Shown: positions 3,096 through 53,078 of the stretch, piece after piece
How positions within the stretch are numbered: the first letter of the stretch is position 1
Layout: each line of letters starts with the position of its first letter
NCBI GenBank assembly: GCA_902767245.1
Contig: CACXGO010000037.1
Location: 1-61,224, forward strand
Length of the DNA: 61,224 nucleotides
Reading direction: 5' to 3'
Origin: an uncultured Erysipelotrichaceae bacterium
GTDB taxonomy: Bacteria > Bacillota_I > Bacilli_A > RF39 > UBA660
Made by a program: the position numbers and the translations under genes
Notes under the pieces: generated by a model
What the model was told of the DNA's origin: nothing
Seen by the model: only the letters and a program-made list of their open reading frames with translations
Database searches by the model: none

Positions 3096-3596
3096 GTGAT
3101 TAACAAAAAAAATATTTGGTTTTTGACTCTTTTTAGTTTGATTTTAGCATTAAGTGTATATTATGTAACAATGCCATCAGAAGTTTTATTAGATGTTTAT
3201 GGTAATGTTGATAAAAAGGAAGAAAATAAAAAAGAAGATGTGGTTGTTGAAGAAACAGACATTATTGCAGTATATCATTTAGAAGATGAAACTACTACTA
3301 CTAAGGAGTTAGATTTGTTAAAAATGAAATTAGTTGATGCCAAAACAACTATTGATGAAAAAAATAGTGTTTATGATAAAATAAAAGACATCGAAAATAA
3401 TAAAAATTTGGAAGCCAATATTGAAAAACAAATTAAAGATGAACTTAAATATAAGGCGTTTGTTAAAATTAAAGATGATACAATAATGGTTGTAATATCA
3501 TCAAAAAAGTATGATATTAGTATAGCAAATAAAGTAATGAAATTAGTTCAGAAGAACTTTAAAGAAACAAAATACATAACTGTTAAGTTTGAATAG
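3096..3596 (+). CDS. spoIIIAH: SpoIIIAH-like family protein (N-terminal TM anchor)
   Basis: N-terminus KKNIWFLTLFSLILALSVYYVTMPSE closely parallels B. subtilis SpoIIIAH (KKQTVWLLTMLSLVVVLSVYYI). GTG start preceded by AGGTGA. Size is about right. Confidence 0.6.
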   Translation: MINKKNIWFLTLFSLILALSVYYVTMPSEVLLDVYGNVDKKEENKKEDVVVEETDIIAVYHLEDETTTTKELDLLKMKLVDAKTTIDEKNSVYDKIKDIENNKNLEANIEKQIKDELKYKAFVKIKDDTIMVVISSKKYDISIANKVMKLVQKNFKETKYITVKFE

Positions 3597-3950: not shown

Positions 3951-4883
3951 ATGTTAAAAAATATATTGAGAAAAAAATTTTTAATTTCGCTTACAGCAAT
4001 ATTTATACTTTTAGTGATATATATAACGAGTAATGAACCAGTTAAATTCAAGCAAGAATTATCATATGCCGATAATAATGTTAGTGTAAGTAGCGTTTAT
4101 TTATTAGATAGCTATGAACTTTTATCATTAGCGCCAGTTGGTTTATTAGAAGATAAAATTGAAAATAAAGCCAAAGAAATTGTCGACATATTAATTCAAG
4201 ATGGACCAGGAGAAAATAAAATCCCTAGTGGATTTAAATCAATCATTAATCAAGATGTGGTATTAAATGATATAAAGTTTAATAATGGCATTTTAAGTCT
4301 AAATTTTTCTAAAAATTTATTTGATACAAAAGAAGAATACGAAATAAAGATTATTGAAAGTTTAATTTATTCATTAACAAGCATAGATGGTGTTAAAGGG
4401 ATTGAAATATCTTTAGATGGGAAAAAATTGGAAGAATTACCAAAATCAAAATTAAAATTACCTAAAACTTTAGATAAATCATTTGGAATTAATAAAAAAT
4501 ATAATTTGTCAAGTCTTGATAATGTTAATAAAGTAACAATATATTATGTAAATAAATATAATGATAATTATTATTATGTACCTGTAACTAGATATTTAAA
4601 TAATAGTGAAGAAAAGGTAAGTATTATTGTTGAAGAATTAAAGGATAATAATTATAATTTAACTGGACTTATGAGCTTTATGAATAGTAATGCAAATTTG
4701 ATTGATATGTCAATTGAAAAAAATGAAATAACTTTAAATTTTGATAAAAATTTATATAATGATCAAAACAATAAAGAGGTTTTTAAAGAAGTAATCAATA
4801 CAATCAATCTATCTATTGAAGCTACATATGGCATAAGTTCTGTTTCTTATATTGTTGATGCTGAACCTTTAAACTTCAATTAA
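3951..4883 (+). CDS. gerM: GerM-like protein (N-terminal anchor plus two GerMN-type domains)
   Basis: TM/lipoprotein-like N-terminus and two repeated modules ending in ...GILSLNFSKNLF and ...NEITLNFDKNLY, as in GerMN domains. Confidence 0.6.
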   Translation: MLKNILRKKFLISLTAIFILLVIYITSNEPVKFKQELSYADNNVSVSSVYLLDSYELLSLAPVGLLEDKIENKAKEIVDILIQDGPGENKIPSGFKSIINQDVVLNDIKFNNGILSLNFSKNLFDTKEEYEIKIIESLIYSLTSIDGVKGIEISLDGKKLEELPKSKLKLPKTLDKSFGINKKYNLSSLDNVNKVTIYYVNKYNDNYYYVPVTRYLNNSEEKVSIIVEELKDNNYNLTGLMSFMNSNANLIDMSIEKNEITLNFDKNLYNDQNNKEVFKEVINTINLSIEATYGISSVSYIVDAEPLNFN

Positions 4884-21248: not shown

Positions 21249-21305
21249 GTTTATTTTTTCTTAGATTAATATTATAATAATAATAGAGAATAAAAGGTGT
21301 TAAAT

Positions 21306-22169
21306 ATGGCTAGAAAAAGGAAAAAAGAATTTATTTTAACATATAAAAAAATACTAATTTTACTTGCTTCTCTTGTAATTATTGCTTTAACTATAATTGT
21401 TGTAAATCGAACTATTCCTTCAACACCAGATTATAAAATTTCATTTAACTTGAGAGAAGATGAAATGTATATAGGTGATACTAGAAAGTTTGATTATTAC
21501 ATTTTAAATGCAACAGGAAATGATAAATTGATTTGGGCAACTTCCGATAGTCGAATCGCTTCAGTTGATGCAAATGGTAAAGTAAATGCCAAATCATTTG
21601 GAGATGTTAAAATAACTGTAAGTTTAGTTAATGGAAATAGTGCTACATTAAAATTACATATAAAAAGCTACCCTGTTTCTTTAAAGTTAAATATAGATCA
21701 AACGGCTTCGCATGATTGGTTTAATAAACCAGTTAATGTAGAAATTGAGTCATTTAATATTAAAAATATTAAGTATTGCGTATCAGCTTCTGAAAAATGT
21801 AATCCCAATATAGTTTATAAAGGAAAAATAACTTTGAAAAATGGAATGTGGTACCTAAATATTAGTGGAATTGATCGTAATTTACAGGAGTTTGATTATC
21901 ATGAGCTTTTTAAAGTAGATTTAATTGCGCCTGTTTGTAATATTACAAGACTTGGAAAATTAGAAGAAGAAACAGCAACTATAATGGTTAATTGTGTCAA
22001 AGATATAAGTGGAATTTATAGTTATGAATGGTATCGTGATGGTAAACGCATTTATGTAACAAATAAAGATCAAATTAATACTAAAGAGATATATGAAGAA
22101 GGCAAACATAAATATAGTGTTAAAGTATATGATTTAGCTGGAAATTATAGTGAGATTTCAGTCAATTGA
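21306..22169 (+). CDS. Membrane-anchored surface protein with a Big_2 Ig-like domain and further Ig-like modules
   Basis: N-terminal K-rich tail plus TM helix; LIWATSDSRIASVDANGKVNAKSFGDVKITV (Big_2); C-terminal DLIAPVC... and VYDLAGNYSEISV motifs. Confidence 0.7.
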   Translation: MARKRKKEFILTYKKILILLASLVIIALTIIVVNRTIPSTPDYKISFNLREDEMYIGDTRKFDYYILNATGNDKLIWATSDSRIASVDANGKVNAKSFGDVKITVSLVNGNSATLKLHIKSYPVSLKLNIDQTASHDWFNKPVNVEIESFNIKNIKYCVSASEKCNPNIVYKGKITLKNGMWYLNISGIDRNLQEFDYHELFKVDLIAPVCNITRLGKLEEETATIMVNCVKDISGIYSYEWYRDGKRIYVTNKDQINTKEIYEEGKHKYSVKVYDLAGNYSEISVN

Positions 22170-34350: not shown

Positions 34351-35901
34351 ATGGAATGGTCTTCCTTATTACTTGGACTCTTAATTGGTCTTATAATCGG
34401 TGTATCAGTTATCATAATTTTTAATTATATAAAAAATTCTAATGAAACAAAAAAAGCCGAAAATGTTTTGGATAAAGCTCAAAAAGAAGCAGAAAAGATA
34501 AAAAAAGATTATCTATTTGAAGCAAAAGAAGAAGCTCATAAATTGAAAATTGAAACAGATGAATATGTAAAAGAAAGAAAAAATGAAATTAAAGAAAACG
34601 AAGATCGTTTGCTTGCTCGTGAAAACAATATTGATAGACGTGATCAAACGATTCAAAATCGTGAAAATCAATTAGAGCAAAAAGAGCAAAATTTAATCGA
34701 AAAGCAAAATGAGATACAATCAGAACAAGTAAAAATTGAAGAAATTAAAAAAGAACAGTTAGATTTATTAGAAAAAATATCAGGTTTTTCTAAAAATCAA
34801 GCGCGTGAAATGGTAATGCAAAAATATGAAGAGATGATGAATCTTGAAATTGTTAATTACATTCACGAAAGGGAAACAGAAGCTCAATTAGAAGCTGACA
34901 AAAAATCAAAAGAATTACTAGTTGAGGCAATGCAAAAATATTCGAGTGAGGTTGCAAATGAACAAACTATTACAGTTGTAACTTTACCTAATGATGAAAT
35001 GAAGGGTCGTATTATTGGTCGTGAAGGCCGAAATATCAGAACATTAGAGTCAGTTACAGGAGTTGATTTAATAATTGATGATACTCCAGAAGCTATTGTT
35101 CTTTCATCGTTTGATCCATATCGTCGTGAAATTGCAAGAATTACAATTGAAAATTTAATAAAAGATGGTAGAATTCATCCAACACGTATTGAAGAATTAT
35201 ATGATAAAACAGTTAAAGACATGAAAGTAAAAGTACGCGATATTGGTGAAACAGCACTATTTGAACTTGGAATAACGAGAGTAGATCCTGAATTAGTAGA
35301 AATATTAGGACGCTTACAATTCAGAACAAGCTATGGTCAGAATGCTTTACAGCATTCAATAGAAGTCGCTAATTTATCTGGTTTAATAGCTGGAGAATTA
35401 GGTGAAAATGTAATGATTGCTAAAAGAGCAGGATTATTTCACGATATAGGGAAAGCTGTAGATCATGAAATTGAAGGGTCTCATGTTGAGATAGGTGCCG
35501 AACTTGCTAAAAAATATCGTGAAGGCAAAGAGGTTATTAATGCGATTGAATCACATCATGGCGATGTGCCAGCAACAAGTGTAATTTCATCAATTGTTGC
35601 AATTGCTGATGCCTTATCAGCATCACGTCCAGGAGCAAGAAATGACTCTTTAGAAAACTATGTAAAACGTCTTGAAGATTTAGAAAATATAGCTTCAGAT
35701 ATTAAAGGCATAGATAAAACATATGCTGTTCAAGCTGGTCGCGAAATACGTGTAATTGTTAAACCAGAAGAAATTGATGATATTGGTAGTTTTAAAGTGG
35801 CACGTGAAATAAAGGAAAAAATTGAAAATGAATTACAATATCCAGGAACAATTAAAGTTACTGTAATTCGTGAAACAAGAGCAACAGAAGAAGCAAAATA
35901 G
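34351..35901 (+). CDS. rny: Ribonuclease Y
   Basis: N-terminal TM helix, coiled coil, KH domain ([15 protein letters not shown]), HD domain ([12 protein letters not shown]...HH). Confidence 0.97.
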
Positions 35902-35912
35902 GAGGAATATTT

Positions 35913-36275
35913 ATGATACTTAATGCATGCCCTGAAAATATGGGGGAGTATATTGCTGCTTGTGCAGATGTATGTATTCCTAGCGATTTAGCCAAATTAA
36001 CCACTTTAGTATATAACATTATTAGAATTGTTGTTCCACTTGTTTTAATTATAATTGGAATGGTTGATATGGCTCGTGCCATGATTGCAAAAAATCAAGA
36101 TGAGGTAAAAAAAGCACAGCAATTACTTGTCAAAAAAGCAATCGCAGGCGCAATTGTATTCCTTTTACTCTCATTAATATTGTGGAGTGTTGATATCTTA
36201 AGTTCGACTAGTGAAACAGACAAAGATAAAGGAATTGTTGAGTGTATTAATGCTCTTTTCAATAATGGAGATTAA
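35913..36275 (+). CDS. Small two-TM membrane protein with VirB2/TrbC-like (pilin-like) topology; function unknown
   Basis: AGGAGG 8 nt upstream. Cys-containing N-terminus, TM1 LVYNIIRIVVPLVLIIIGMVDMARAMI, charged loop AKNQDEVKKAQQLLVKKA, TM2 IAGAIVFLLLSLILWSV. No terminator between rny and this ORF. Confidence 0.6.
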   Translation: MILNACPENMGEYIAACADVCIPSDLAKLTTLVYNIIRIVVPLVLIIIGMVDMARAMIAKNQDEVKKAQQLLVKKAIAGAIVFLLLSLILWSVDILSSTSETDKDKGIVECINALFNNGD

Positions 36276-36278
36276 TAA

Positions 36279-36304
36279 AAAAGGTGATGTCATCACCTTT
36301 TTTA
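36279..36304 (+). terminator. Rho-independent terminator
   Basis: AAAGGTGATG (36280-36289) / CATCACCTTT (36291-36300), then TTTT. Confidence 0.75.
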
Positions 36305-36350
36305 TTGAAAAAAATTAAAAATAAAGATATAATTAAAATAGGTGATAGTC

Positions 36351-38441
36351 GTGATTAATAAGAAGGGTTTTACACTTATAGAAGTTATTAGCGTTCTAGT
36401 TATATTAGGTCTTATTGCAACACTTGTAGTAACACAATACTCTAATATAATAAAAGATAGTCGTAAACAATTAAACGACGAACAAAAATCACGATTAGTT
36501 GAAGTTGCTAAAAATGTATCACTTAATAATAAAGAATGTTTACAAATTGCTAAAGATAATGAAGCCGGTTCAAAAATAACTATAGATCAAATGAAAAAAA
36601 ATGGTTATATTGCTAACACAGATTTAAAAGATTTAGAAAAAAATTCGAACCTTGATGCTTGTGTAATTATTAATTGGGATTCTATCTATCAAAAATTTAA
36701 TTATCAATATTCTGAAGAATGTAATGTTCCAAAAAATTGTATTATTACAGCAGAATCCGAAAAAGTAATTATAAGTAGCTTTAATTTTGAAGGCGGAAAT
36801 TATACGAATCAGCAAAGTATTACATATAATTTACAATATAGTGCAAGAATTAGTGCTGACTATTGTATTACATTAGAAAATGAAGCAAGTTGTAATTGGA
36901 AAAAACTAAACAGCAATTTAACAAGTTTATCAGGTAATATTAATATTACAAAAAATGAAAACATTGTTCATCTTTATGTCAGAAATAGTAATAAAAATAT
37001 AATAAATTCAATAGATAGAACAATTTATTATGATACAGTACCACCAACATGTGTTTGGCAAAGTGCCAAAGATAATTATATTAAAAATGGTGGATCTACA
37101 GAAATTGTTTTAAGCTGTAATGATCCTGCTGGAATAGATAATGTCACTTTATTATCATCTACAATTAGCTATAATAATTCACTTATTTCATTAAGTGATG
37201 CTATTGTTACAGAAAATGCTAATGGAAAGGATTACAAATTTTCAATTTTAGGATTAACGGGAAATGGAGAAGTAACCTTGTCATTAAATTCAGGTGTTTT
37301 GAAAGATAAGGCCGGTAATGCTATTAATACTACCCTTACGAGTAGTTCAATAGTAGTTGATAATATTTCGCCTACAGCAGATATAAAAATTAATGAGTCT
37401 AATTACACAAATAGTGAGTTTGTAACATTATATTTTTCTAATGCGTCTGATGTTGACAAAATGTGTATAAGCAATACTTCTGGGGGAAATTGTTCTTTTG
37501 TTGCCTATGCTAGTTCTTATCCATGGACTTTAAGTACAAGTGATGGAACTAAGACTGTTTATGTGACATTTAGAGATAGAGCAGGAAATGAAGCAACTAA
37601 AACAGCATCAATTGTGCTTGATAAGACAGCACCAATTTGTACTAGTAGTGCATCTAGTTCTATTAATAGCATAAAAGAAAATGCGTATGTTGATTATACA
37701 ATTAATTGTGTGGATGATAATTTTGAGACTAGACCTCAAATAACAACAGATATGCTTCTTATAGATAACCCTAATTTGGCTGATATTGAAGTTTTAGGTA
37801 CTAATACAAGTGGTACTAAAATTCGTGTAACTGCTAAAAATGGTAATGGGAACATGGCAGTCTATTTAACTCCTTCAATTGAAGATAAAGCTAAAAATAA
37901 AAATATACAAAAACAATTATTTAGTATCAATATTGATAATACACCACCATCAAATAATAGTATTTCGTTTAAATATGACAAAATGACTATAACTAATTTA
38001 AACTATGTGAATTTGGTTTTATCAAGTGATTTACTTCCAAATGAAGGTTATTATTGTTTAAAATTGGAGGATGATATTAGTAAATGCACTAATTCTAATT
38101 GGGAAGTTTATAAAACAAATGTGATTTTTGATGTAAGTCATACGGATGGGACATATAATATTTATGTATTTTTTAAAGATATAGCAGGAAATGTTTCTCC
38201 AAATTCAGTTTCAAAGTCTATAAAAATAAATCATAATGCTATTCAATGCGAATTAAAATTAGAAGATGACAGGTTATTTATTAATTCAACATCAAATAAC
38301 CTAGCTGCAACTCCATATTTTATAAATGGTGAATGGACAACACAAAACTATATTCCAATAGCGAATAATCAAACGCATTATTTTGCCTATATAAAAGATA
38401 ATAATAATGAAATAAATTATTGTGAATATGATAACACTTAA
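36351..38441 (+). CDS. Large modular type IV pilin-like protein (prepilin N-terminal cleavage/methylation motif plus ~5 Ig-like modules)
   Basis: (M)INKKG/FTLIEVISVLVILGLIATLVV is a class III signal peptide with Glu at +5. The C-terminal ~600 aa has recurring ...D.AGN...(I/V)xxDxxxPxC... module boundaries. GTG 36351 lies 5 nt after AGGTGA. Confidence 0.75.
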   Translation: MINKKGFTLIEVISVLVILGLIATLVVTQYSNIIKDSRKQLNDEQKSRLVEVAKNVSLNNKECLQIAKDNEAGSKITIDQMKKNGYIANTDLKDLEKNSNLDACVIINWDSIYQKFNYQYSEECNVPKNCIITAESEKVIISSFNFEGGNYTNQQSITYNLQYSARISADYCITLENEASCNWKKLNSNLTSLSGNINITKNENIVHLYVRNSNKNIINSIDRTIYYDTVPPTCVWQSAKDNYIKNGGSTEIVLSCNDPAGIDNVTLLSSTISYNNSLISLSDAIVTENANGKDYKFSILGLTGNGEVTLSLNSGVLKDKAGNAINTTLTSSSIVVDNISPTADIKINESNYTNSEFVTLYFSNASDVDKMCISNTSGGNCSFVAYASSYPWTLSTSDGTKTVYVTFRDRAGNEATKTASIVLDKTAPICTSSASSSINSIKENAYVDYTINCVDDNFETRPQITTDMLLIDNPNLADIEVLGTNTSGTKIRVTAKNGNGNMAVYLTPSIEDKAKNKNIQKQLFSINIDNTPPSNNSISFKYDKMTITNLNYVNLVLSSDLLPNEGYYCLKLEDDISKCTNSNWEVYKTNVIFDVSHTDGTYNIYVFFKDIAGNVSPNSVSKSIKINHNAIQCELKLEDDRLFINSTSNNLAATPYFINGEWTTQNYIPIANNQTHYFAYIKDNNNEINYCEYDNT

Positions 38442-38476
38442 AAAAGATTTTATGAAACCTTTCATAAAATCTTTTT
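38442..38476. terminator. Bidirectional 16-bp hairpin terminator
   Basis: AAAAGATTTTATGAAA (38442-38457) / TTTCATAAAATCTTTT (38460-38475). Confidence 0.8.
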
Positions 38477-38666
38477 ATATTATTTGATAGTTATTCATCA
38501 TATTTGAATTTAAATTTTGTCCATTTAAATTAGCTTCTAATATAGATAATCTTTTTTCAATATTTGTAATTCTTTGTTCAATATTATTGGTTTCTTGTGT
38601 AAGAGGCATCATTGGCATCATTGGTTGATAAGGATACATCATTCCACAATTTCGATCTATTTGCAT
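38475..38666 (-). CDS. Small Met/Pro/Asn-rich protein with a coiled-coil segment; function unknown
   Basis: AAGGAGA RBS about 7 nt upstream of the ATG on the minus strand, and its own terminator. MMYPYQPMMPMMP... then NNIEQRITNIEKRLSILEANL. Confidence 0.5.
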   Translation of the reverse strand: MQIDRNCGMMYPYQPMMPMMPLTQETNNIEQRITNIEKRLSILEANLNGQNLNSNMMNNYQII

Positions 38667-44920: not shown

Positions 44921-44932
44921 GGGTTGATTTAT

Positions 44933-46687
44933 ATGTTTGAAAAAATTATATATCTGAGTGATAACATGGCACATGTTTCTTTATCACCTAATGTACCATT
45001 GTCTTTTAATATCATGAATATGCATGTAGTATTTCAAGATTCTGAAAAATGCATATTGGGTGAAATTGAAGACATTGATGAAAAAGTTGTCAAAATTCGT
45101 TTTTTGGGCGAATTTAATAATCAAGAATTCATAAGTGGTACTATTAGAAAACCGCTTTTAAATGCAACAATAAGGCTTATAAATAAAGAAGAAATACCAT
45201 ATATAATGGGAGAAAATAATAACAACAATGTTTTTATTGGAACTTCGCCACTTTATAATAATTTTCCAATTTTTAGTTCAATAAATGATTTGTTTAGTAA
45301 TCATATGGCTATATTCGGAAATACCGGTAGTGGTAAATCATATGGAGTAGCTAGGCTTTTACAAAATGTTTTTGAAAATCCAAAATTGCAACCATTCAAA
45401 GCTATTTTTTGGATATTTGATGCTTATGGTGAGTATCATAGCGCTTTTAAAGATATTAATAAAATAAATCCTAATTACAATTTCAAATTTTATTCAACTA
45501 ATGAAGAAACTGGTGGTGAAAAATTAAGAATACCACCTTGGCTTTTAACAGTGGATGATCTAGCTTTATTGCTTCGTGCAGATAGTCATACTCAAATTCC
45601 AATATTAGAAAAGACTTTGAGACTAGTAAGAATATTTTCGCAAAATGATAATGCTTCTTATGCATGTAAGGATTATTTAATTGCAAAAGCAATCGTTAAT
45701 ATAATGTATAATAATCAAACAGCGATGAATAAACGTAATGACATTTTTACAATTTTAAATACTTGTCAGACTCCAAATTTTGGAATCGAAACACTTGTTC
45801 ATGGAATAGGATATACAAGAAGACTTCGTGAGTGTTTTGAAATAGATTTAAATGGCAATTTTGCGGAAACAGTTTTATTAAATACATATTTATCTAATTT
45901 TTTAAATGCTGAAGCTGATAATTATATACCTCAAACATTGAGACCATATTCATTAAAAGATATTGAAAGTGCACTTGATTTTGCTCTTATATCTGATGGA
46001 GTTTTAAATAATCCAAAATCTTATGGCGATGCTATAACTCTAAAAGTAAGACTTCATAGTATTGTAAATAGTGAAAATTCAAGATTTTTTGATTATAATT
46101 TAAGTGAATACATAAATTTAGAAAAATTTATAGCATCTCTAGTTTCTAAAGAAGGAAAAAGAGCACAAATAATAAATTTTAATTTAGAAGATATAGATGA
46201 TGCACTTGCAAAAGTGTTGACAAAAGTATTTTCACGTATGCTTTTTGAATTTACAAAGAATTTGGAAGATAGAGCAACCATTCCATTTAATGTGTTTTTA
46301 GAGGAAGCTCATCGATATGTTCAAAATGATAATGATGTTTATTTGTTAGGATATAATATTTTTGAACGTATTGCTAAGGAAGGAAGAAAATATGGGCTTA
46401 TTTATAATTTAATTTCGCAAAGACCAGTAGAACTTTCAGAAACTGTAATTTCTCAGTGTACTAATTTCTTCATTTTCAAAATGAGTCATCCACGTGACAT
46501 TGATTTTATTAAAAAAATGTTACCAAATATTAATAATGAAATTGTTGAAAAACAAAAAAGTTTACAACCAGGAACTTGTGTAGCCTTTGGTCGCGCATTT
46601 AAAGTTCCTCAAATTATTAAAATGCCACTTCCAAGTCCAGCACCATCAAGTAATAGCTGTGATATTGTGAATAGGTGGAGAGCATGA
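44933..46687 (+). CDS. HerA-like (DUF87) P-loop ATPase of the FtsK-HerA superfamily
   Basis: N-terminal beta-rich, HAS-barrel-like region (ILGEIEDIDEKVVKIRFLGEF), Walker A FGNTGSGKS, long helical insert, Walker B-like PFNVFLEEAHRY, GRKYGLIYNLISQRPVELSETVISQCTNFFIFKM. ATG 44933 is 9 nt after AGGGG. Confidence 0.8.
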   Translation: MFEKIIYLSDNMAHVSLSPNVPLSFNIMNMHVVFQDSEKCILGEIEDIDEKVVKIRFLGEFNNQEFISGTIRKPLLNATIRLINKEEIPYIMGENNNNNVFIGTSPLYNNFPIFSSINDLFSNHMAIFGNTGSGKSYGVARLLQNVFENPKLQPFKAIFWIFDAYGEYHSAFKDINKINPNYNFKFYSTNEETGGEKLRIPPWLLTVDDLALLLRADSHTQIPILEKTLRLVRIFSQNDNASYACKDYLIAKAIVNIMYNNQTAMNKRNDIFTILNTCQTPNFGIETLVHGIGYTRRLRECFEIDLNGNFAETVLLNTYLSNFLNAEADNYIPQTLRPYSLKDIESALDFALISDGVLNNPKSYGDAITLKVRLHSIVNSENSRFFDYNLSEYINLEKFIASLVSKEGKRAQIINFNLEDIDDALAKVLTKVFSRMLFEFTKNLEDRATIPFNVFLEEAHRYVQNDNDVYLLGYNIFERIAKEGRKYGLIYNLISQRPVELSETVISQCTNFFIFKMSHPRDIDFIKKMLPNINNEIVEKQKSLQPGTCVAFGRAFKVPQIIKMPLPSPAPSSNSCDIVNRWRA

Positions 46688-47463
46688 AAAAAGATTTAAC
46701 TAATCCATTAGTTATTATTTCTTTAATATTAGTTATATTAGTAATAGCAATCTTTATTAAGTATTATTTTGTTAAACCATTATTTAAAGAAGCAAGTAAA
46801 ATTGAAGTTTCAGCAGAAGAAAAACTAGATTTGAAACTTTTGACAAAAGCTTATTTAAATCAAAACAAAAATATAGCAATTCAAAAAAAGCTTTTTGGTT
46901 CAAATAATATAAATGAATTTGCAGTTGCTGCCAATTACTATTATTTAAAAAAGGGAATTGATCATTTAAATGAATATGATTCAATTCTTAAAGTTGGGAG
47001 AAAAATATTTAACAATAAGAGTTTAAATTTTTCTAATTTTGAGGTTAACATTGATGAAAAATCATGCGGTAAAGAAAAATATACGACATTAGAAGGAATA
47101 ATTTATAATGATGAATGTGATAAAGAACTTTTAATCTATGAAATAGGTGACATTTACAAGCAAGGAAATAATTATGTTGTTGAGTTTTATGCTTCAAAAG
47201 CTGTTCAAAAATTAATTTCTTCAAACAAGGAATGTGATAATTATGAAAAGTCAGTTGCATATAATTTAACATTAACTGATTTAGAAAATAATGAATTTTT
47301 TAATGAATTATATTCAAGGTGTTGTTTAGATAATTGCTTGGTAGAAGGAATCGATTCATTAAAGGATGATATTTTAAAGCAAATGAAAATGCACAATCAC
47401 ATCTATAAATTAGTTTTTCAAAAAAATGAAAATGATTTTGTATATGATAAGCTAAAAAAATAA
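46684..47463 (+). CDS. N-terminally membrane-anchored protein with a six-cysteine C-terminal domain; function unknown; translationally coupled to the HerA-like ATPase
   Basis: ATGA start/stop overlap at 46684-46687. TM helix LVIISLILVILVIAIFI. Cys in SCG, ECD, ECD, RCC and NC contexts. Terminator follows. Confidence 0.65.
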   Translation: MKKDLTNPLVIISLILVILVIAIFIKYYFVKPLFKEASKIEVSAEEKLDLKLLTKAYLNQNKNIAIQKKLFGSNNINEFAVAANYYYLKKGIDHLNEYDSILKVGRKIFNNKSLNFSNFEVNIDEKSCGKEKYTTLEGIIYNDECDKELLIYEIGDIYKQGNNYVVEFYASKAVQKLISSNKECDNYEKSVAYNLTLTDLENNEFFNELYSRCCLDNCLVEGIDSLKDDILKQMKMHNHIYKLVFQKNENDFVYDKLKK

Positions 47464-49790: not shown

Positions 49791-51539
49791 ATGAATTTGA
49801 AAGATTTATATATTGATTTTTTTGTAAGCAAAGGACATGTGCAAATTCCAAGTGCTCCAGTAGTGCCTGAAAATGATCCAAGTGTACTATTTAATACAGC
49901 AGGGATGCAACCTTTAATTCCATATCTAATGGGCCAAAAACATCCTTATGGTACAAGACTATGTGATTATCAAAAATGTGTTCGAACTAATGATTTGGAT
50001 AATATTGGAGATACTTATCATCATACTTTTTTTGAAATGTTAGGTAATTGGAGTTTAGGAGATTATTTTAAAAAAGAAGCTATTACTTGGAGTTTTGAAT
50101 TTTTAACTAAAGTCTTAAATATCCCAGTTGAGAGACTTGCTGTTACAGTTTTTGCTGGTAATGATATTATTTCAAAAGACGAAGAGGCAATTGCTATATG
50201 GAAGAGTCTTGGAATAAAAGATGAAAGAATTTGTCCAACTGCTAATGATAATTTTTGGATTGCCGGTGAAACCGGACCATGTGGACCAGATACCGAAATG
50301 TTTTATTTTAGAAGTAATGATCCTATTCCAGAAAAATTTGATCCTGAAGATAATCGTTGGGTTGAAATTTGGAATGATGTTTTTATGCAATATAACAAAG
50401 ATGCAAGTGGCAGTGTAACTGAACTTCCACATAAAAATGTTGATACTGGTATGGGAGTTGAAAGAACAACCGCTATTTTAGAAGGAGTTAATGATAATTA
50501 TTTATCATCAATTTGGTCTGATGTTATCGCATTAATCGAAAAAATATCTGGATTAAAATATGCTGGTCATGAAAAAGAGATGCGTATTATTGCTGATCAT
50601 ATGCGTACAGCAGTATTTATTTCGGCTGATCCAGCAGGAATAAAGCCATCAAATACAGATCAAGGATATATTTTAAGAAGACTCATCAGAAGAACAATAA
50701 GATATGCTAAAAAATTAGATATTGATATTAATTCTGATTGGGAAAAAGAAATTGCTGAATTGATTATTTCAAAGTATGATAATTATTATTCGGAATTAAA
50801 AACAAACCATGAAGTTGTTTTAAATGTCTTAAATTCTGAAAAAGTTAAATTTAACCGTACATTAGAAAAAGGATTGAAAGAGTTTAATAAAATCGTGAGT
50901 GCCTTAACTGATAAAGTTTTAAACAAAGACCTAGCATTTAAACTTTATGATACCTATGGATTTCCTATTGAACTTACAGTTGAACTTGCAAATGAGCAAG
51001 GAATTACAGTTGATGAAGAAGGTTTTAAAGAAAAATTTAAAGCTCATCAAGAATTATCTAGAACTGCATCAGCAGGTAAGTTTAAAGGTGGTTTAGCTGG
51101 TAACAATGAAATTGAAACACGTTATCATACAGCAACTCATTTGCTTAACGCCGCTTTAAAGAAAGTTATAAATAATGATGTTCATCAAAAGGGATCAAAT
51201 ATTACAGATGAAAGAATGCGTTTTGATTTCTCGTGTGATCATAAATTAACTCCAGAAGAAATTGAACAAGCAGAAAAATTAGTTAATGAATACATAAAAG
51301 AAGGATTAGATGTAACGGTTGAGTCAATGCCAAAAGAAGAAGCTATTAAGTCTGGAGCAGAATGTATGTTCATTGAAAAATATCCTGATATTGTAACAGT
51401 TTATTCAATTGGAGATGTTTCAAAAGAATTATGTGGTGGACCTCATGTAAAAAATACACGTGAGCTTGGTGAATTTAAAATAATTAAAGAAGAAGCATCA
51501 TCGGCAGGTGTAAGAAGAATAAAAGCTATTTTAAAATAG
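49791..51539 (+). CDS. alaS: Alanine--tRNA ligase, short form (582 aa): catalytic and tRNA-recognition domains plus a minimal editing core; no C-Ala domain
   Basis: FFVSKGH, DPSVLFTNAGM-like DPSVLFNTAGMQP, QKCVRTNDLDNIG, HHTFFEMLGNWSLGDYFK, GPCGPDTEMF, WNDVFMQYN, VDTGMGVERT, HTATHLLNAAL (HxxxH), CGGPHV, GVRRIKAILK then stop. Confidence 0.85.
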   Translation: MNLKDLYIDFFVSKGHVQIPSAPVVPENDPSVLFNTAGMQPLIPYLMGQKHPYGTRLCDYQKCVRTNDLDNIGDTYHHTFFEMLGNWSLGDYFKKEAITWSFEFLTKVLNIPVERLAVTVFAGNDIISKDEEAIAIWKSLGIKDERICPTANDNFWIAGETGPCGPDTEMFYFRSNDPIPEKFDPEDNRWVEIWNDVFMQYNKDASGSVTELPHKNVDTGMGVERTTAILEGVNDNYLSSIWSDVIALIEKISGLKYAGHEKEMRIIADHMRTAVFISADPAGIKPSNTDQGYILRRLIRRTIRYAKKLDIDINSDWEKEIAELIISKYDNYYSELKTNHEVVLNVLNSEKVKFNRTLEKGLKEFNKIVSALTDKVLNKDLAFKLYDTYGFPIELTVELANEQGITVDEEGFKEKFKAHQELSRTASAGKFKGGLAGNNEIETRYHTATHLLNAALKKVINNDVHQKGSNITDERMRFDFSCDHKLTPEEIEQAEKLVNEYIKEGLDVTVESMPKEEAIKSGAECMFIEKYPDIVTVYSIGDVSKELCGGPHVKNTRELGEFKIIKEEASSAGVRRIKAILK

Positions 51540-51614: not shown

Positions 51615-53078
51615 ATGAAGAAAATTTTATTAGCAATTTTATTAACTATTTTATTACCATTCACAGTAAATGCGGAAGAACCAATATTTAAACTTCAATG
51701 TCCAACGGGAGGAGTAATTAATAGTACACTTAAATGTGAACTTTCAGTAATAACTGAGAGAACAGTTAACGAAGTTTCATTAGAATATGATTTTGAGGAT
51801 AAATTTACGTATGAATCATTTGTACCAGCTTCAAATTTTACATCTGAATCGGCTACATCAAGTGGATTCACTATAAAGAATGCTACTGGAATGACTGGGG
51901 AATTTGAAATAGGCGTATTATCAGTTAAATTTTTACAAGCTGGTAATATGGGTTTAAAAAATATCAAAATAGTTGACAACACGCCATCCACTTTTACAGC
52001 ACCTTCAATTGCCCAACCAATTGCAGCATTATCTGGGGATAATACTTTAAAAACTTTAACATTTTCAAGTGGTGAGTTATCACCAAAATTTGATGCAAGT
52101 ATTACAAATTATAAATTAGAAGTAGAAGAATCATCTATAACAATTACTGCGACTGCTAATGATACAAAAGCCAAAGTTAGTGGAACAGGTAAAAAAAATC
52201 TTGCATATGGGGATAACATTATTAATGTAGTAGTAGTAAGTGAAAGTGGAAGCAAAAAAACTTATAAAATTACTGTAACACGCAAAGATAATCGAAATGC
52301 AAACAATAATATTAAATCATTAACTTTATCAATCGGAACATTTAGTTTTACACCAGAAACAACTTCATATATAATTCCGGTACAAAAAGATGTTGAAAAA
52401 GTACAAATAACTGCAGAATTAGAAGATTCAAAAGCCTCGTTTGTAAAAAATTATGGTCCGAGAGAAATTCAAATAAGTGGTGAAAAAACGGTAGCAGAAT
52501 TAAAGGTAAAAAGTGAATCTGAAGTAGTTAAAGTATACACATTGACATTTGTAAAAACAGATAAAGTATTATCGGATGATAATACAATCAAAGAACTTAC
52601 AATTGAAGGTTATGAAATTGATTTTAAATCAGAAGTTACAACTTATGAATTAAAAGTAAAAGAAAATGACACACTTAAATTTAAAATTTTATTAAATAGT
52701 GAAAACGCAAAATATGAACTTATAAATAGTGATTTAAAAGATGGAAATACGGTAATTATAAAAGTAACTGCTGAAAACGGAGATATTCGTGAATACAAAT
52801 TTAATTTGGTTCAAGAAAAATCAGAAATTAAATCTATTAAAGAAGATTTGGTTTGTAATGATAATTCAATAATTTATTATTTGATATTCTTTGTTTTAGG
52901 TCTAATCATTGCAACTATTATTTCTAATATTGTTTATAACAAAAAGATAAAAAAAATAGAGAAAAAATATCGTTCTGAAATAAATCAAAATTATATACCA
53001 AATAAAAATAATGAAGAAGTTTTATTTTATGATGATTATGATCAAAATATTTATCGTAATAATGGGAATAGTAATTAA
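51615..53078 (+). CDS. Secreted, C-terminally membrane-anchored surface protein with three cadherin-like beta-sandwich repeats
   Basis: Signal peptide MKKILLAILLTILLPFTVNAEE. Repeats start DNTLKTLTFSSGELSPKFDASITNYKLEV, NNNIKSLTLSIGTFSFTPETTSYIIPV and DNTIKELTIEGYEIDFKSEVTTYELKV. TM helix IIYYLIFFVLGLIIATIISNIV near the C-terminus. Confidence 0.7.
   Translation: MKKILLAILLTILLPFTVNAEEPIFKLQCPTGGVINSTLKCELSVITERTVNEVSLEYDFEDKFTYESFVPASNFTSESATSSGFTIKNATGMTGEFEIGVLSVKFLQAGNMGLKNIKIVDNTPSTFTAPSIAQPIAALSGDNTLKTLTFSSGELSPKFDASITNYKLEVEESSITITATANDTKAKVSGTGKKNLAYGDNIINVVVVSESGSKKTYKITVTRKDNRNANNNIKSLTLSIGTFSFTPETTSYIIPVQKDVEKVQITAELEDSKASFVKNYGPREIQISGEKTVAELKVKSESEVVKVYTLTFVKTDKVLSDDNTIKELTIEGYEIDFKSEVTTYELKVKENDTLKFKILLNSENAKYELINSDLKDGNTVIIKVTAENGDIREYKFNLVQEKSEIKSIKEDLVCNDNSIIYYLIFFVLGLIIATIISNIVYNKKIKKIEKKYRSEINQNYIPNKNNEEVLFYDDYDQNIYRNNGNSN

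What the first reader, a model, noticed from the sequence alone, without database searches (positions are those of the whole stretch)
35913..38441. Orphan giant modular type IV prepilin next to a VirB2/TrbC-like two-TM protein, tucked behind rny
Seen: the 696-aa ORF begins with a textbook class III signal peptide, (M)INKKG/FTLIEV with Glu+5 and a hydrophobic helix. It then continues for about 600 aa through roughly five Ig-like modules with recurring boundaries: D.AGN ... I..D...P.C. Examples are YDTVPPTC, LDKTAPIC, VDNISPT and IDNTPPS. Directly upstream, and apparently co-transcribed with RNase Y (strong AGGAGG, no intervening terminator), is a 120-aa protein. Its two hydrophobic helices flank a short K/E/Q loop (IIIGMVDMARAMIAKNQDEVKKAQQLLVKKAIAGAIVF), which mimics the topology of conjugative VirB2/TrbC-type pilins. 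No PilB/PilC/PilD/ComG genes, VirB4/VirD4 or relaxase genes are in the window. Established: type IV pilins are normally 100-200 aa and are encoded with their assembly machinery. Modular pilins carrying extra adhesion domains are known but rare. Inference: this could be a pilus-tip adhesin or a pseudopilus-displayed surface protein that depends on machinery encoded elsewhere. Two different pilin-like proteins side by side is unexplained.
Basis: partly seen in the sequence, partly recalled or inferred. Interest (0 to 1): 0.66.

Follow-up and report, generated by a model that had tools for sequence, protein, structure and literature searches.

The report
Orphan modular pilin beside VirB2-like protein
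A fast-evolving 696-residue surface protein with a genuine type IV pilin head and six Ig-like modules sits beside, but is transcribed separately from, a small two-helix membrane protein whose relatives occupy the pilin slot of secretion-system clusters; both belong to kinds already known, and nothing shows that they work together.

Summary
ORF 36351-38441 encodes a 696-aa protein with a class III (prepilin) signal peptide, MINKKG|FTLIEV. N_methyl and TIGR02532 score above their curated cut-offs. The AlphaFold2 model (pLDDT 86) shows a pilin module followed by six beta-sandwich modules arranged A-B-A-B-A-C. It is a modular type IV pilin, a class already known to be widespread.

ORF 35913-36275 encodes a two-TM hairpin protein from a very large family (6667 clusters). 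Some members sit in arrays next to VirB6/VirB3/VirB4 genes in other gut Bacilli. Sequence homology to VirB2/T4SS_pilin is not demonstrated.

The two genes are separate transcription units. The small gene starts 11 nt after rny. A terminator and a conserved promoter then precede the pilin gene in all four lineages examined.

Adjacency is conserved only as part of a fully collinear housekeeping block. Both genes are its fastest-evolving members (44-52% identity against 56-94% for the neighbours).

No pilus or T4SS machinery lies in the 61-kb window. The rest of the genome could not be searched.

Verdict: a new member of a known kind, of moderate interest. The most novel lead is a VirB2-like family in cell-walled Bacilli.

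The parts
34351..35901 (+). rny (RNase Y), first gene of the transcription unit that carries the 120-aa gene
   Evidence: The 516-aa ORF is 88-94% identical to orthologs that carry RNase_Y_N/KH/HD domains.
35900..35905 (+). AGGAGG ribosome-binding site of the 120-aa gene, overlapping the rny stop codon
   Evidence: Read from the sequence. The gap from the rny stop to the next start is 9-11 nt in all four lineages.
35913..36275 (+). 120-aa two-TM hairpin membrane protein with predicted N-out/C-out topology and extracytoplasmic Cys17 and Cys111. Member of a very large VirB2-like-by-context family.
   Evidence: Exhaustive profile search: 6667 clusters. Cys17, Pro42, Gly49 and Cys111 are invariant in A4 and A5. 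AF2 model: helices 24-58 and 62-99.
36272..36308 (+). Intrinsic terminator ending the rny-120aa unit. GC core GGTGAT/ATCACC at 36283-36297, then a U-tract.
   Evidence: -17.7 kcal/mol, z = -5.74. Equivalent hairpins with U-tracts follow the orthologous gene in L001, L003 and L081.
36305..36333 (+). Sigma-A-type promoter of the prepilin gene (TTGAAA-17-TATAAT)
   Evidence: 11 of 12 consensus matches. The block TTTTTATTGAAAAAA...ATATAAT...TAGGTGATA is nearly invariant in four orthologous loci, including L081, where the upstream neighbour is different (A6).
36340..36345 (+). AGGTGA ribosome-binding site of the prepilin gene
36351..36368 (+). [quoted passage not shown]
36369..36740 (+). Pilin module: FTLIEV..., alpha-1 helix (residues 9-58) and a small beta head with invariant Cys63, Cys104, Cys124 and Cys130
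   Evidence: AF2 model and A2 invariants. It aligns with stand-alone 118-121-aa pilins of a Bacilli MAG (L006). Matches to solved pilins cover mainly alpha-1; the MshA match runs to residue 110.
36741..37034 (+). Beta-sandwich module M1 (type A), residues 131-228
37035..37361 (+). Beta-sandwich module M2 (type B), residues 229-337
   Evidence: M2~M4 at 98.5%.
37362..37622 (+). Beta-sandwich module M3 (type A, Big_13), residues 338-424
   Evidence: M3~M5 at 96.7%.
37623..37937 (+). Beta-sandwich module M4 (type B), residues 425-529. The least conserved module (34% to orthologs).
37938..38231 (+). Beta-sandwich module M5 (type A), residues 530-627
38232..38441 (+). C-terminal small beta module M6, residues 628-696, plus the stop codon
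   Evidence: 39% to orthologs.
38441..38476 (.). Hairpin terminator shared by the prepilin gene and the convergent small gene
   Evidence: -15.1 kcal/mol, z = -7.8.

Best explanation
These are two neighbouring but separately transcribed genes for fast-evolving envelope proteins. They lie in the core chromosome of an uncultured, low-GC (about 27%) Bacilli bacterium that has a cell wall and sporulation genes.

(1) The 696-aa protein is a modular type IV pilin. Shown:
- a canonical class III signal peptide;
- a long alpha-1 helix and a small pilin head;
- six Ig-like beta-sandwich modules in the order A-B-A-B-A-C;
- its own conserved promoter and terminator.

Inferred: a prepilin peptidase encoded outside the window removes the six-residue leader. 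The alpha-1 helix then lets a type IV filament machine (Com-like or T4P) take up the protein as a low-abundance, probably tip-located subunit. The Ig-like stalk (roughly 20 nm by my estimate, not computed) holds the most variable distal modules, M4 and M6, away from the cell as an adhesin.

(2) The 120-aa protein is co-transcribed with rny. Shown: it is a two-helix membrane hairpin. Inferred: the basic loop lies in the cytoplasm, both tails lie outside, and a Cys17-Cys111 disulfide clamps the tails together. It belongs to a very large family of gut and rumen Bacilli. In that family the module stands alone or anchors variable Cys-rich, LysM or Ig-like ectodomains. In some genomes it sits in arrays at the VirB2 position of T4SS-like clusters. 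The window copy is the bare module. It most likely acts as a small surface-exposed membrane protein, independent of a local T4SS.

(3) No functional coupling between the two proteins is shown. Their adjacency is inherited with a fully collinear block.
For: Pilin identity: N_methyl and TIGR02532 score above their cut-offs. The motif is far beyond chance. FTLIEVI is invariant in 19 orthologs. The AF2 model has pLDDT 86 with helix 9-58.

Modules.

Own transcription unit. SSPI lies in between in L081.

Conservation gradient: alpha-1N 73%, head 60%, M4 34%, M6 39%. This fits a constrained assembly interface and a diversifying distal end.

Orphan pilins are usual in related Bacilli. Modular pilins are an established class and are proposed to be tip-exposed (PMC8179133).

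Small protein:
- topology from charge and hydropathy and the AF2 hairpin;
- 43 of 150 relatives carry the module at the C-terminal end behind an N-terminal extension, and 11 of the 12 extensions printed begin with a Sec-type signal peptide followed by a Cys-rich region, which puts the module's N-side outside;
- both Cys residues are invariant;
- family size;
- T4SS-cluster context of relatives;
- tight 9-11-nt coupling to rny in all four lineages.
Against: - No prepilin peptidase, assembly ATPase, platform protein or major pilin lies in the 61-kb window. The remainder of the genome (a contig of about 875 kb) could not be read. Processing and filament incorporation are therefore pure inference.
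- No specific ComG or Gsp equivalog is reached (best is ComGE, 34 against 49 bits).
- For the small protein, PF18895 is sub-threshold. At family level it is matched by 24 of 150 members, against 27 of 150 for the unrelated DUF621.
- NCBIfam Mbov_0395 'pilin-like' is matched by 1 of 75 members.
- Foldseek and PDB sequence searches found nothing.
- The AF2 model of the small protein is only moderate (pLDDT 71.5).
Confidence: 0.6

Rival explanations
1. The class III signal peptide is used only as a membrane anchor. The 696-aa protein stays in the cytoplasmic membrane as a type II-oriented stalk of Ig-like modules that crosses the thin wall. It is never polymerised into a filament, and the genome may even lack a complete pilus machine.
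For: No machinery lies within 61 kb. Every modular pilin examined in related Bacilli is likewise isolated among housekeeping genes. The gene has its own constitutive-looking sigma-A promoter. Six rigid Ig modules would be a bulky cargo for a filament.
Against: The cleavage and assembly motif is invariant (G-1 in 18 of 19 orthologs, F+1 and E+5 in all), and alpha-1N is the most conserved part, although the rest of the protein diverges to 34-50%. A mere anchor would not need Glu+5. Related genomes carry several small classical pilins, which implies a machine exists in the group.
Confidence: 0.25
2. The two genes form a functional pair. The VirB2-like hairpin protein and the modular type IV pilin cooperate, for example as a membrane partner or nucleator for the pilin, or as two components of one hybrid surface appendage.
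For: Adjacency holds in four lineages that have diverged to 46-52% in the pilin. Both are the two fastest-evolving genes of the block, with similar divergence of 44-52%. In relatives, T4SS-like clusters combine a T2SSE-family ATPase module with arrays of the hairpin protein.
Against: Separate transcription units, with a terminator and a conserved promoter, occur in all four lineages. An opposite-strand SSPI gene lies between them in L081. The whole 20-kb block is collinear, so adjacency carries no extra information. In 1.28 Mb of prepilin-centred loci the hairpin module appears next to a prepilin only in the orthologous loci. Its paralog arrays lie beside recD2 or VirB genes without class III prepilins. 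Similar divergence is expected for any two exposed proteins.
Confidence: 0.12
3. The 120-aa protein has nothing to do with pili. It is a generic small two-TM membrane module, an anchor for variable ectodomains or a membrane-organising or stress protein. Its occurrence in T4SS-like clusters is one of many contexts.
For: Sequence matches to T4SS_pilin are as weak as those to an unrelated TM family. NCBIfam gives no consistent hit. There is no structural match. Most contexts seen are not T4SS: next to rny, or arrays between sortase/capsule genes and recD2. The gene is co-transcribed with a housekeeping RNase.
Against: In three loci from different samples, four family members sit between a VirB11-like ATPase module and the VirB6-like, VirB3-like and VirB4 genes; one of them lies directly upstream of the VirB6-like gene. 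This is the position VirB2 arrays hold in Patescibacteria. Size, hairpin topology, N-out/C-out orientation, a Sec leader in many members and tandem divergent arrays all parallel VirB2.
Confidence: 0.3

Closest known systems
Modular type IV pilins (Streptococcus sanguinis PilB with a vWA module and PilC with a lectin module; ETEC CofB)
   Same: A class III signal peptide and a small pilin module are fused to non-pilin modules. These proteins are proposed to be tip-exposed adhesins. Multi-repeat examples are known (an 860-aa protein with 12 repeats) (PMC8179133).
   Different: Here the cargo is six Ig-like modules of two alternating types plus a terminal module. The gene is monocistronic and sits in a housekeeping block, far from any pil or com genes, whereas the S. 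sanguinis genes lie in the pil locus (from my own knowledge). No ligand-binding domain is recognisable.
Com (ComG) pseudopilus minor pilins and T2SS pseudopilins
   Same: The N-terminal 60-90 residues give the best NCBIfam matches: ComGE 1.9e-8, GspG 1e-6, ComGF, ComGD and ComGC.
   Different: All are below the equivalog cut-offs. The matches cover only alpha-1 and adjacent residues. Those proteins are 80-170 aa and are encoded in operons.
VirB2/TrbC and Pfam T4SS_pilin (PF18895), including the divergent VirB2-like arrays of Patescibacteria
   Same: A protein of about 100-150 aa forming a two-helix hairpin with a basic cytoplasmic loop and both ends outside. Many family members have Sec leaders. 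Relatives form tandem arrays of divergent copies next to VirB6, VirB3 and VirB4.
   Different: The window protein scores 18.1 bits against a cut-off of 26.6 and has no signal peptide and no T4SS neighbours. The family has a conserved Cys pair. I suggest this pair could replace the head-to-tail cyclisation known for T-pilin and TrbC (that cyclisation is from my own knowledge, and the suggestion is an inference). Many members carry large ectodomains.
Mycoplasma ICE 'Mbov_0395 family pilin-like conjugal transfer protein' with Mbov_0396 and Mbov_0397 (VirB4)
   Same: The VirB4 and VirB6-like proteins of the relatives' clusters match the Mbov_0397 and Mbov_0396 models best (2.6e-103 and 1.1e-10). 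The window protein has a faint Mbov_0395 hit (0.018).
   Different: Only 1 of 75 family members reaches E < 1e-3 on Mbov_0395. The organisms here have cell walls. No relaxase or integrase is seen in the 20-kb loci.

Membership tests
Type IV pilin (class III signal peptide proteins) | Short basic leader ending in Gly(-1), hydrophobic +1 residue (Phe) and Glu at +5 | tested here: met
   MINKKG|FTLIEV. N_methyl 24.8 bits (cut-off 21.2) and TIGR02532 27.1 bits (cut-off 16.3). Invariant in 19 orthologs. One match against 0.01 expected by chance.
Type IV pilin (class III signal peptide proteins) | Extended N-terminal alpha-1 helix followed by a globular beta head | tested here: met
   AF2 model: helix 9-58, helix 61-69 and strands 74-121. 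Conserved Cys63, Cys104, Cys124 and Cys130.
Type IV pilin (class III signal peptide proteins) | Cognate prepilin peptidase (A24) and assembly ATPase and platform protein in the same genome | not testable with these tools
   None in the 61-kb window. The window protein is not on record in the contig index.
Type IV pilin (class III signal peptide proteins) | Leader cleavage, N-methylation and incorporation into a filament | not testable with these tools
   Needs an experiment.
Modular pilins (sensu Raynaud et al. 2021) | A pilin module fused by a short linker to one or more domains not specific to type IV filaments | tested here: met
   Big_13 35.8 bits (cut-off 27). Six beta-sandwich modules. 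Foldseek returns multi-Ig chains.
ComG competence pilins (ComGC/GD/GE/GF equivalogs) | Score above the NCBIfam equivalog cut-off | tested here: not met
   ComGE 34.3 against 49; ComGF 20.3 against 80; ComGD 19.6 against 70; ComGC 18.9 against 75.
VirB2/TrbC-type T4SS pilin (PF04956, PF18895) | Profile match above the gathering threshold | tested here: not met
   PF18895 18.1 bits against 26.6, and no PF04956 hit. 24 of 150 relatives reach E < 1e-3, but 27 of 150 also hit the unrelated DUF621.
VirB2/TrbC-type T4SS pilin (PF04956, PF18895) | Small two-TM hairpin with a cytoplasmic basic loop and both termini outside | tested here: met
   Hydropathy and charge. AF2 helices 24-58 and 62-99. Relatives have a Sec leader and an ectodomain before the module. 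This is prediction only.
VirB2/TrbC-type T4SS pilin (PF04956, PF18895) | Encoded with VirB4, VirB6 and VirB3 in a T4SS cluster | tested here: not met
   There is no T4SS gene in the window. The DUF87 protein at 44924-46687 is HerA-like, not VirB4. The feature is met only by paralogous relatives in L086, L087 and L090.
VirB2/TrbC-type T4SS pilin (PF04956, PF18895) | Structural similarity to solved VirB2, TraA or TrbC pilins | tested here: inconclusive
   Foldseek against PDB gave no significant hit, but a bare helical hairpin is a poor query. The PDB profile search gave 0 hits.
Holins | Match to a holin family and a lysis-cassette context | tested here: not met
   No holin hit for the 120-aa protein in Pfam or PHROGs. 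tblastn found no match in phage genomes. The neighbours are rny and trmB.

The most novel reading that the evidence does not exclude
The 120-aa protein represents a very large, unnamed family of VirB2-like pilins in cell-walled gut and rumen Bacilli (at least 6667 clusters at 50% identity). Arrays of divergent copies sit beside VirB6, VirB3 and VirB4, as in Patescibacteria. Monoderm T4SS pili would then not be a Patescibacteria-only exception. The rny-linked copy, together with the neighbouring modular type IV pilin, would be a conserved, rapidly diversifying pair of surface-appendage subunits kept at a core locus.
Probability: 0.3. Interest if true: 0.7.

Novelty: new member of a known kind. 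Interest (0 to 1): 0.42.

Why it matters
The pilin adds one more modular type IV pilin architecture: alternating Ig-like modules on a minimal pilin head. It comes from a poorly known group of small-genome gut and rumen Bacilli, where it is probably a host- or particle-binding adhesin. Its distal modules diverge fast, which makes it a candidate for strain-level surface variation.

The small protein matters more through its family. A 2025 review states that VirB2 is not found in Gram-positive T4SSs except in Patescibacteria (PMC12857230). The arrays beside VirB6, VirB3 and VirB4 found here in Bacilli contigs suggest that this exception may be wider. That idea could be tested directly by structure determination and genetics.

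Tried and rejected
It returned unrelated prepilins from many phyla and none of the true orthologs.
- The look-up of encoding contigs does not hold the window genome, so the search for PilD, PilB, PilC or VirB4 elsewhere in the genome could not be done.
- tblastn of the 120-aa protein against plasmids and phages gave no match.
- A PDB profile search and Foldseek for the hairpin found nothing.
- Foldseek for the pilin returned only generic multi-Ig chains.
- The PHROGs holin test was negative.
- The listing of cluster members gave no names.
- I considered that the DUF87 ATPase at 44924-46687 might be a VirB4. I rejected this because it matches HerA models and shares only P-loop-region similarity with the VirB4 of L086.
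- I considered that PF18895 hits among relatives prove homology. I rejected this as insufficient because DUF621 hits are equally frequent.
- I considered a two-gene pilin operon. I rejected this on the terminator and conserved promoter evidence.
Full report
**Setting**

The window is a low-GC stretch (about 24-33% GC per 2-kb window) of core chromosome. Its genes are housekeeping or sporulation-related:
- RNase R, SpoIIIAH-like, GerM, FtsK, RuvX, MltG, GreA, trigger factor and ProS;
- CCA-adding enzyme, DnaD, PBP1, RecU, DivIVA, PgsA, RecA and RNase Y;
- TrmB, RNase J, FtsY, AlaS, UvrC and L1.

The nearest labelled relatives are MAGs called 'Bacilli bacterium' or 'Erysipelotrichaceae bacterium'. 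Related contigs come from rumen and gut metagenomes. Peptidoglycan and spore genes in a small genome fit the Erysipelotrichales, RF39 and RFN20 group described in PMC10868615. I could not place the organism more precisely.

**The large protein**

The maximal ORF is 36342-38441. The real start is GTG 36351. It follows AGGTGA (36340-36345) and aligns with the start codons of three orthologous loci.

MINKKG|FTLIEV is a canonical class III signal peptide:
- N_methyl and TIGR02532 exceed their curated cut-offs.
- The back-translated motif occurs once against 0.01 expected.
- It is the only such motif in six frames of the window.

Nineteen full-length orthologs (42-54% identity) keep F+1, T, L, I, E+5, V and I invariant.

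AlphaFold2 with this alignment gives a confident model (pLDDT 86.3). It shows:
- an alpha-1 helix at 9-58;
- a small head ending near residue 125, with four invariant cysteines;
- six beta-sandwich modules.

Profile-profile comparison of the modules shows two alternating types, so the architecture is pilin-A-B-A-B-A-C:

| Module pair | hhalign probability |
|---|---|
| M2 ~ M4 | 98.5% |
| M3 ~ M5 | 96.7% |
| M1 ~ M3 and M1 ~ M5 | about 70% |

Type A is Big_13-like. Foldseek finds only generic chains of Ig-like domains. No ligand-binding domain is recognisable.

The head region aligns with stand-alone 118-121-aa pilins that lie next to rny in a more distant Bacilli MAG (L006). It is therefore a complete small pilin module with cargo grafted on. 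This is the definition of a modular pilin. That class is documented as widespread: more than 1,200 proteins in 264 architectures, including multi-repeat examples (PMC8179133).

**The small protein**

ORF 35913-36275 starts 11 nt after the rny stop codon. Its AGGAGG overlaps that stop. It has two hydrophobic helices around a net +4 loop, and both tails are acidic. AlphaFold2 gives a helical hairpin at moderate confidence.

The word-indexed search found only three relatives. An exhaustive HMMER search with their profile found 6667 clusters at E <= 1e-3 and 1652 at E <= 1e-10.

Among the best 150 hits:
- 60 are stand-alone modules;
- 44 have the module at the N-terminus with a C-terminal extension;
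- 43 have the module at the C-terminal end behind an N-terminal extension, and 11 of the 12 extensions printed begin with a Sec-type signal peptide followed by a Cys-rich region.

This fixes the predicted orientation as N-out/C-out. One Cys before TM1 and one after TM2 are invariant. I infer an extracytoplasmic disulfide that ties the two tails together.

The direct orthologs next to rny carry C-terminal extensions: 210 aa and 231 aa (both Cys-rich) and 330 aa (weak LysM hit). The window copy is the bare module.

**Is the small protein VirB2-like?**

By sequence this is unproven:
- PF18895 scores 18.1 bits against a cut-off of 26.6.
- 24 of 150 relatives reach E < 1e-3, but 27 of 150 also hit DUF621, an unrelated TM family.
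- NCBIfam's Mbov_0395 'pilin-like' model is reached by 1 of 75 members.
- PDB and Foldseek searches are empty.

By context the case is better. In L086, L087 and L090, four family members (three with Sec leaders) lie within a T4SS-like cluster. They sit downstream of a VirB11/TadA-like ATPase module and upstream of these genes:
- a VirB6-like protein (TrbL_4, Mbov_0396-like);
- a 106-aa VirB3-like protein;
- a split VirB4 (Mbov_0397 model, 2.6e-103).

This is the layout reported for the VirB2 arrays of Patescibacteria. A recent review calls those arrays the only VirB2 homologues in monoderm T4SSs (PMC12857230).

Other family members form arrays of four or five genes between a sortase/capsule cluster and recD2, with no T4SS gene within 10 kb. 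The window holds a single copy and no T4SS gene. The DUF87 ATPase at 44924-46687 is HerA-like, not VirB4.

**Relation between the two genes**

The order rny, hairpin gene, pilin gene, trmB recurs in three further lineages (L001/L002, L003, L081/L082). Three facts argue against a functional unit.

1. A strong terminator follows the hairpin gene in the window (-17.7 kcal/mol, z = -5.7) and in the three other lineages.
2. The pilin gene has its own promoter. The block TTGAAA-17-TATAAT-AGGTGA-start is almost invariant in the four loci. It persists in L081, where an SSPI gene on the opposite strand separates the two genes. The pilin gene also has its own terminator.
3. The entire block from PBP1 to FtsY is collinear in these genomes. 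Adjacency therefore says no more than it does for trmB.

The two genes do share one property: their rate of change.

| Gene | Identity to orthologs |
|---|---|
| hairpin protein | 44-49% |
| pilin | 46-52% |
| all flanking genes | 56-94% |
| rny | 88-94% |
| recA | 89-94% |

Within the pilin, conservation falls from alpha-1N (73%) and the head (60%) to M4 (34%) and M6 (39%). This pattern fits exposed proteins with a constrained assembly end and a diversifying distal end.

**Machinery**

No PilB, PilC, PilD or ComG gene, no second pilin and no T4SS or relaxase gene lies in the window.

Circumstantially, the group does use type IV pilins. Related Bacilli MAGs carry several classical small pilins and other modular pilins, and these too are scattered among housekeeping genes:
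- after dnaJ and after rmuC;
- beside recU and der;
- beside uvrC;
- beside pyrG.

Orphan placement is therefore the local norm, not an anomaly.

**Conclusion**

- The large protein is a new member of the known class of modular type IV pilins. Its processing and display are inferred, not shown.
- The small protein is a member of a very large unnamed two-TM family that behaves like VirB2 by context in some genomes, but it fails the sequence membership test.
- The two genes are neighbours in separate transcription units, and there is no evidence of cooperation.
- The most interesting lead, the VirB2-like arrays in cell-walled Bacilli, lies outside the window.

Noticed in passing
L086 4173-18009, L087 and L090 (related metagenome contigs): T4SS-like clusters in gut Bacilli contigs. 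Gene order: T2SSE-family (VirB11/TadA-like) ATPase, two unannotated proteins of about 300 and 263 aa, several small proteins with hydrophobic N-termini, four copies of the two-TM hairpin family, a VirB6-like protein, a VirB3-like protein, a split VirB4, and a VanY hydrolase in L090. No relaxase is seen within 20 kb. This resembles the Patescibacteria T4SS with VirB2 arrays.
   Followed up: partly
L080, L083-L085 and L089 (about 8.7-11.9 kb in each locus): Tandem arrays of divergent hairpin-family genes (102-163 aa) lie just upstream of recD2: four or five copies in L083-L085 and L089, two in L080, which is cut at the contig end. In L083-L085 and L089 they follow a Wzz/CpsD/CpsB-sortase cluster. 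The window genome has no such array within the 61 kb.
   Followed up: partly
window 44924-47463 (+): A HerA-like DUF87 ATPase (587 aa; best NCBIfam hits are 'anti-phage-associated helicase HerA', far below cut-off) overlaps by 13 nt a 262-aa protein with no family match. The pair sits downstream of ftsY, and the ATPase is conserved in L081 (76%). It may be a HerA-partner repair or defence pair.
   Followed up: partly
window 38475-38666 (-): A 63-aa ORF converges on the pilin gene and is a real conserved gene. The motifs DRNCG...YQPxMPM...NIEQRIxNIEKRLSILExNLN...NYQII are shared with 86-aa and 76-aa ORFs at the same position in L003 and L081. No gene is called at that position in L001. It matches no family.
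   Followed up: partly
L081 9675-9899 (-): A small acid-soluble spore protein gene (SSPI, PF14098) is inserted between the hairpin gene and the pilin gene in one lineage. Together with SpoIIIAH (window 3096-3596) and GerM (window 3951-4883), this suggests the group sporulates.
   Followed up: no
L006 1083-3487: In a more distant Bacilli MAG, two tandem classical pilins (118 and 121 aa), similar to the N-terminal module of the 696-aa protein, lie immediately upstream of rny (71% identical to the window's). Pilin genes near rny may be an old feature of this group.
   Followed up: partly
window 49791-51539 (+): The alanyl-tRNA synthetase ORF is only 582 aa (catalytic and SAD domains). From my own knowledge this is shorter than the roughly 870 aa usual in bacteria, which would mean the C-terminal domain is missing.
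   Followed up: no
window 21297-22169 (+) and 51615-53078 (+): Two further predicted surface proteins with Ig-like folds: a Big_2 protein (290 aa) and a Cadherin-like protein (487 aa). The orthologous blocks L001, L003 and L081 also carry a 646-668-aa Bact_surface_Ig-like protein between ytxH and rnj that is absent from the window.
   Followed up: no
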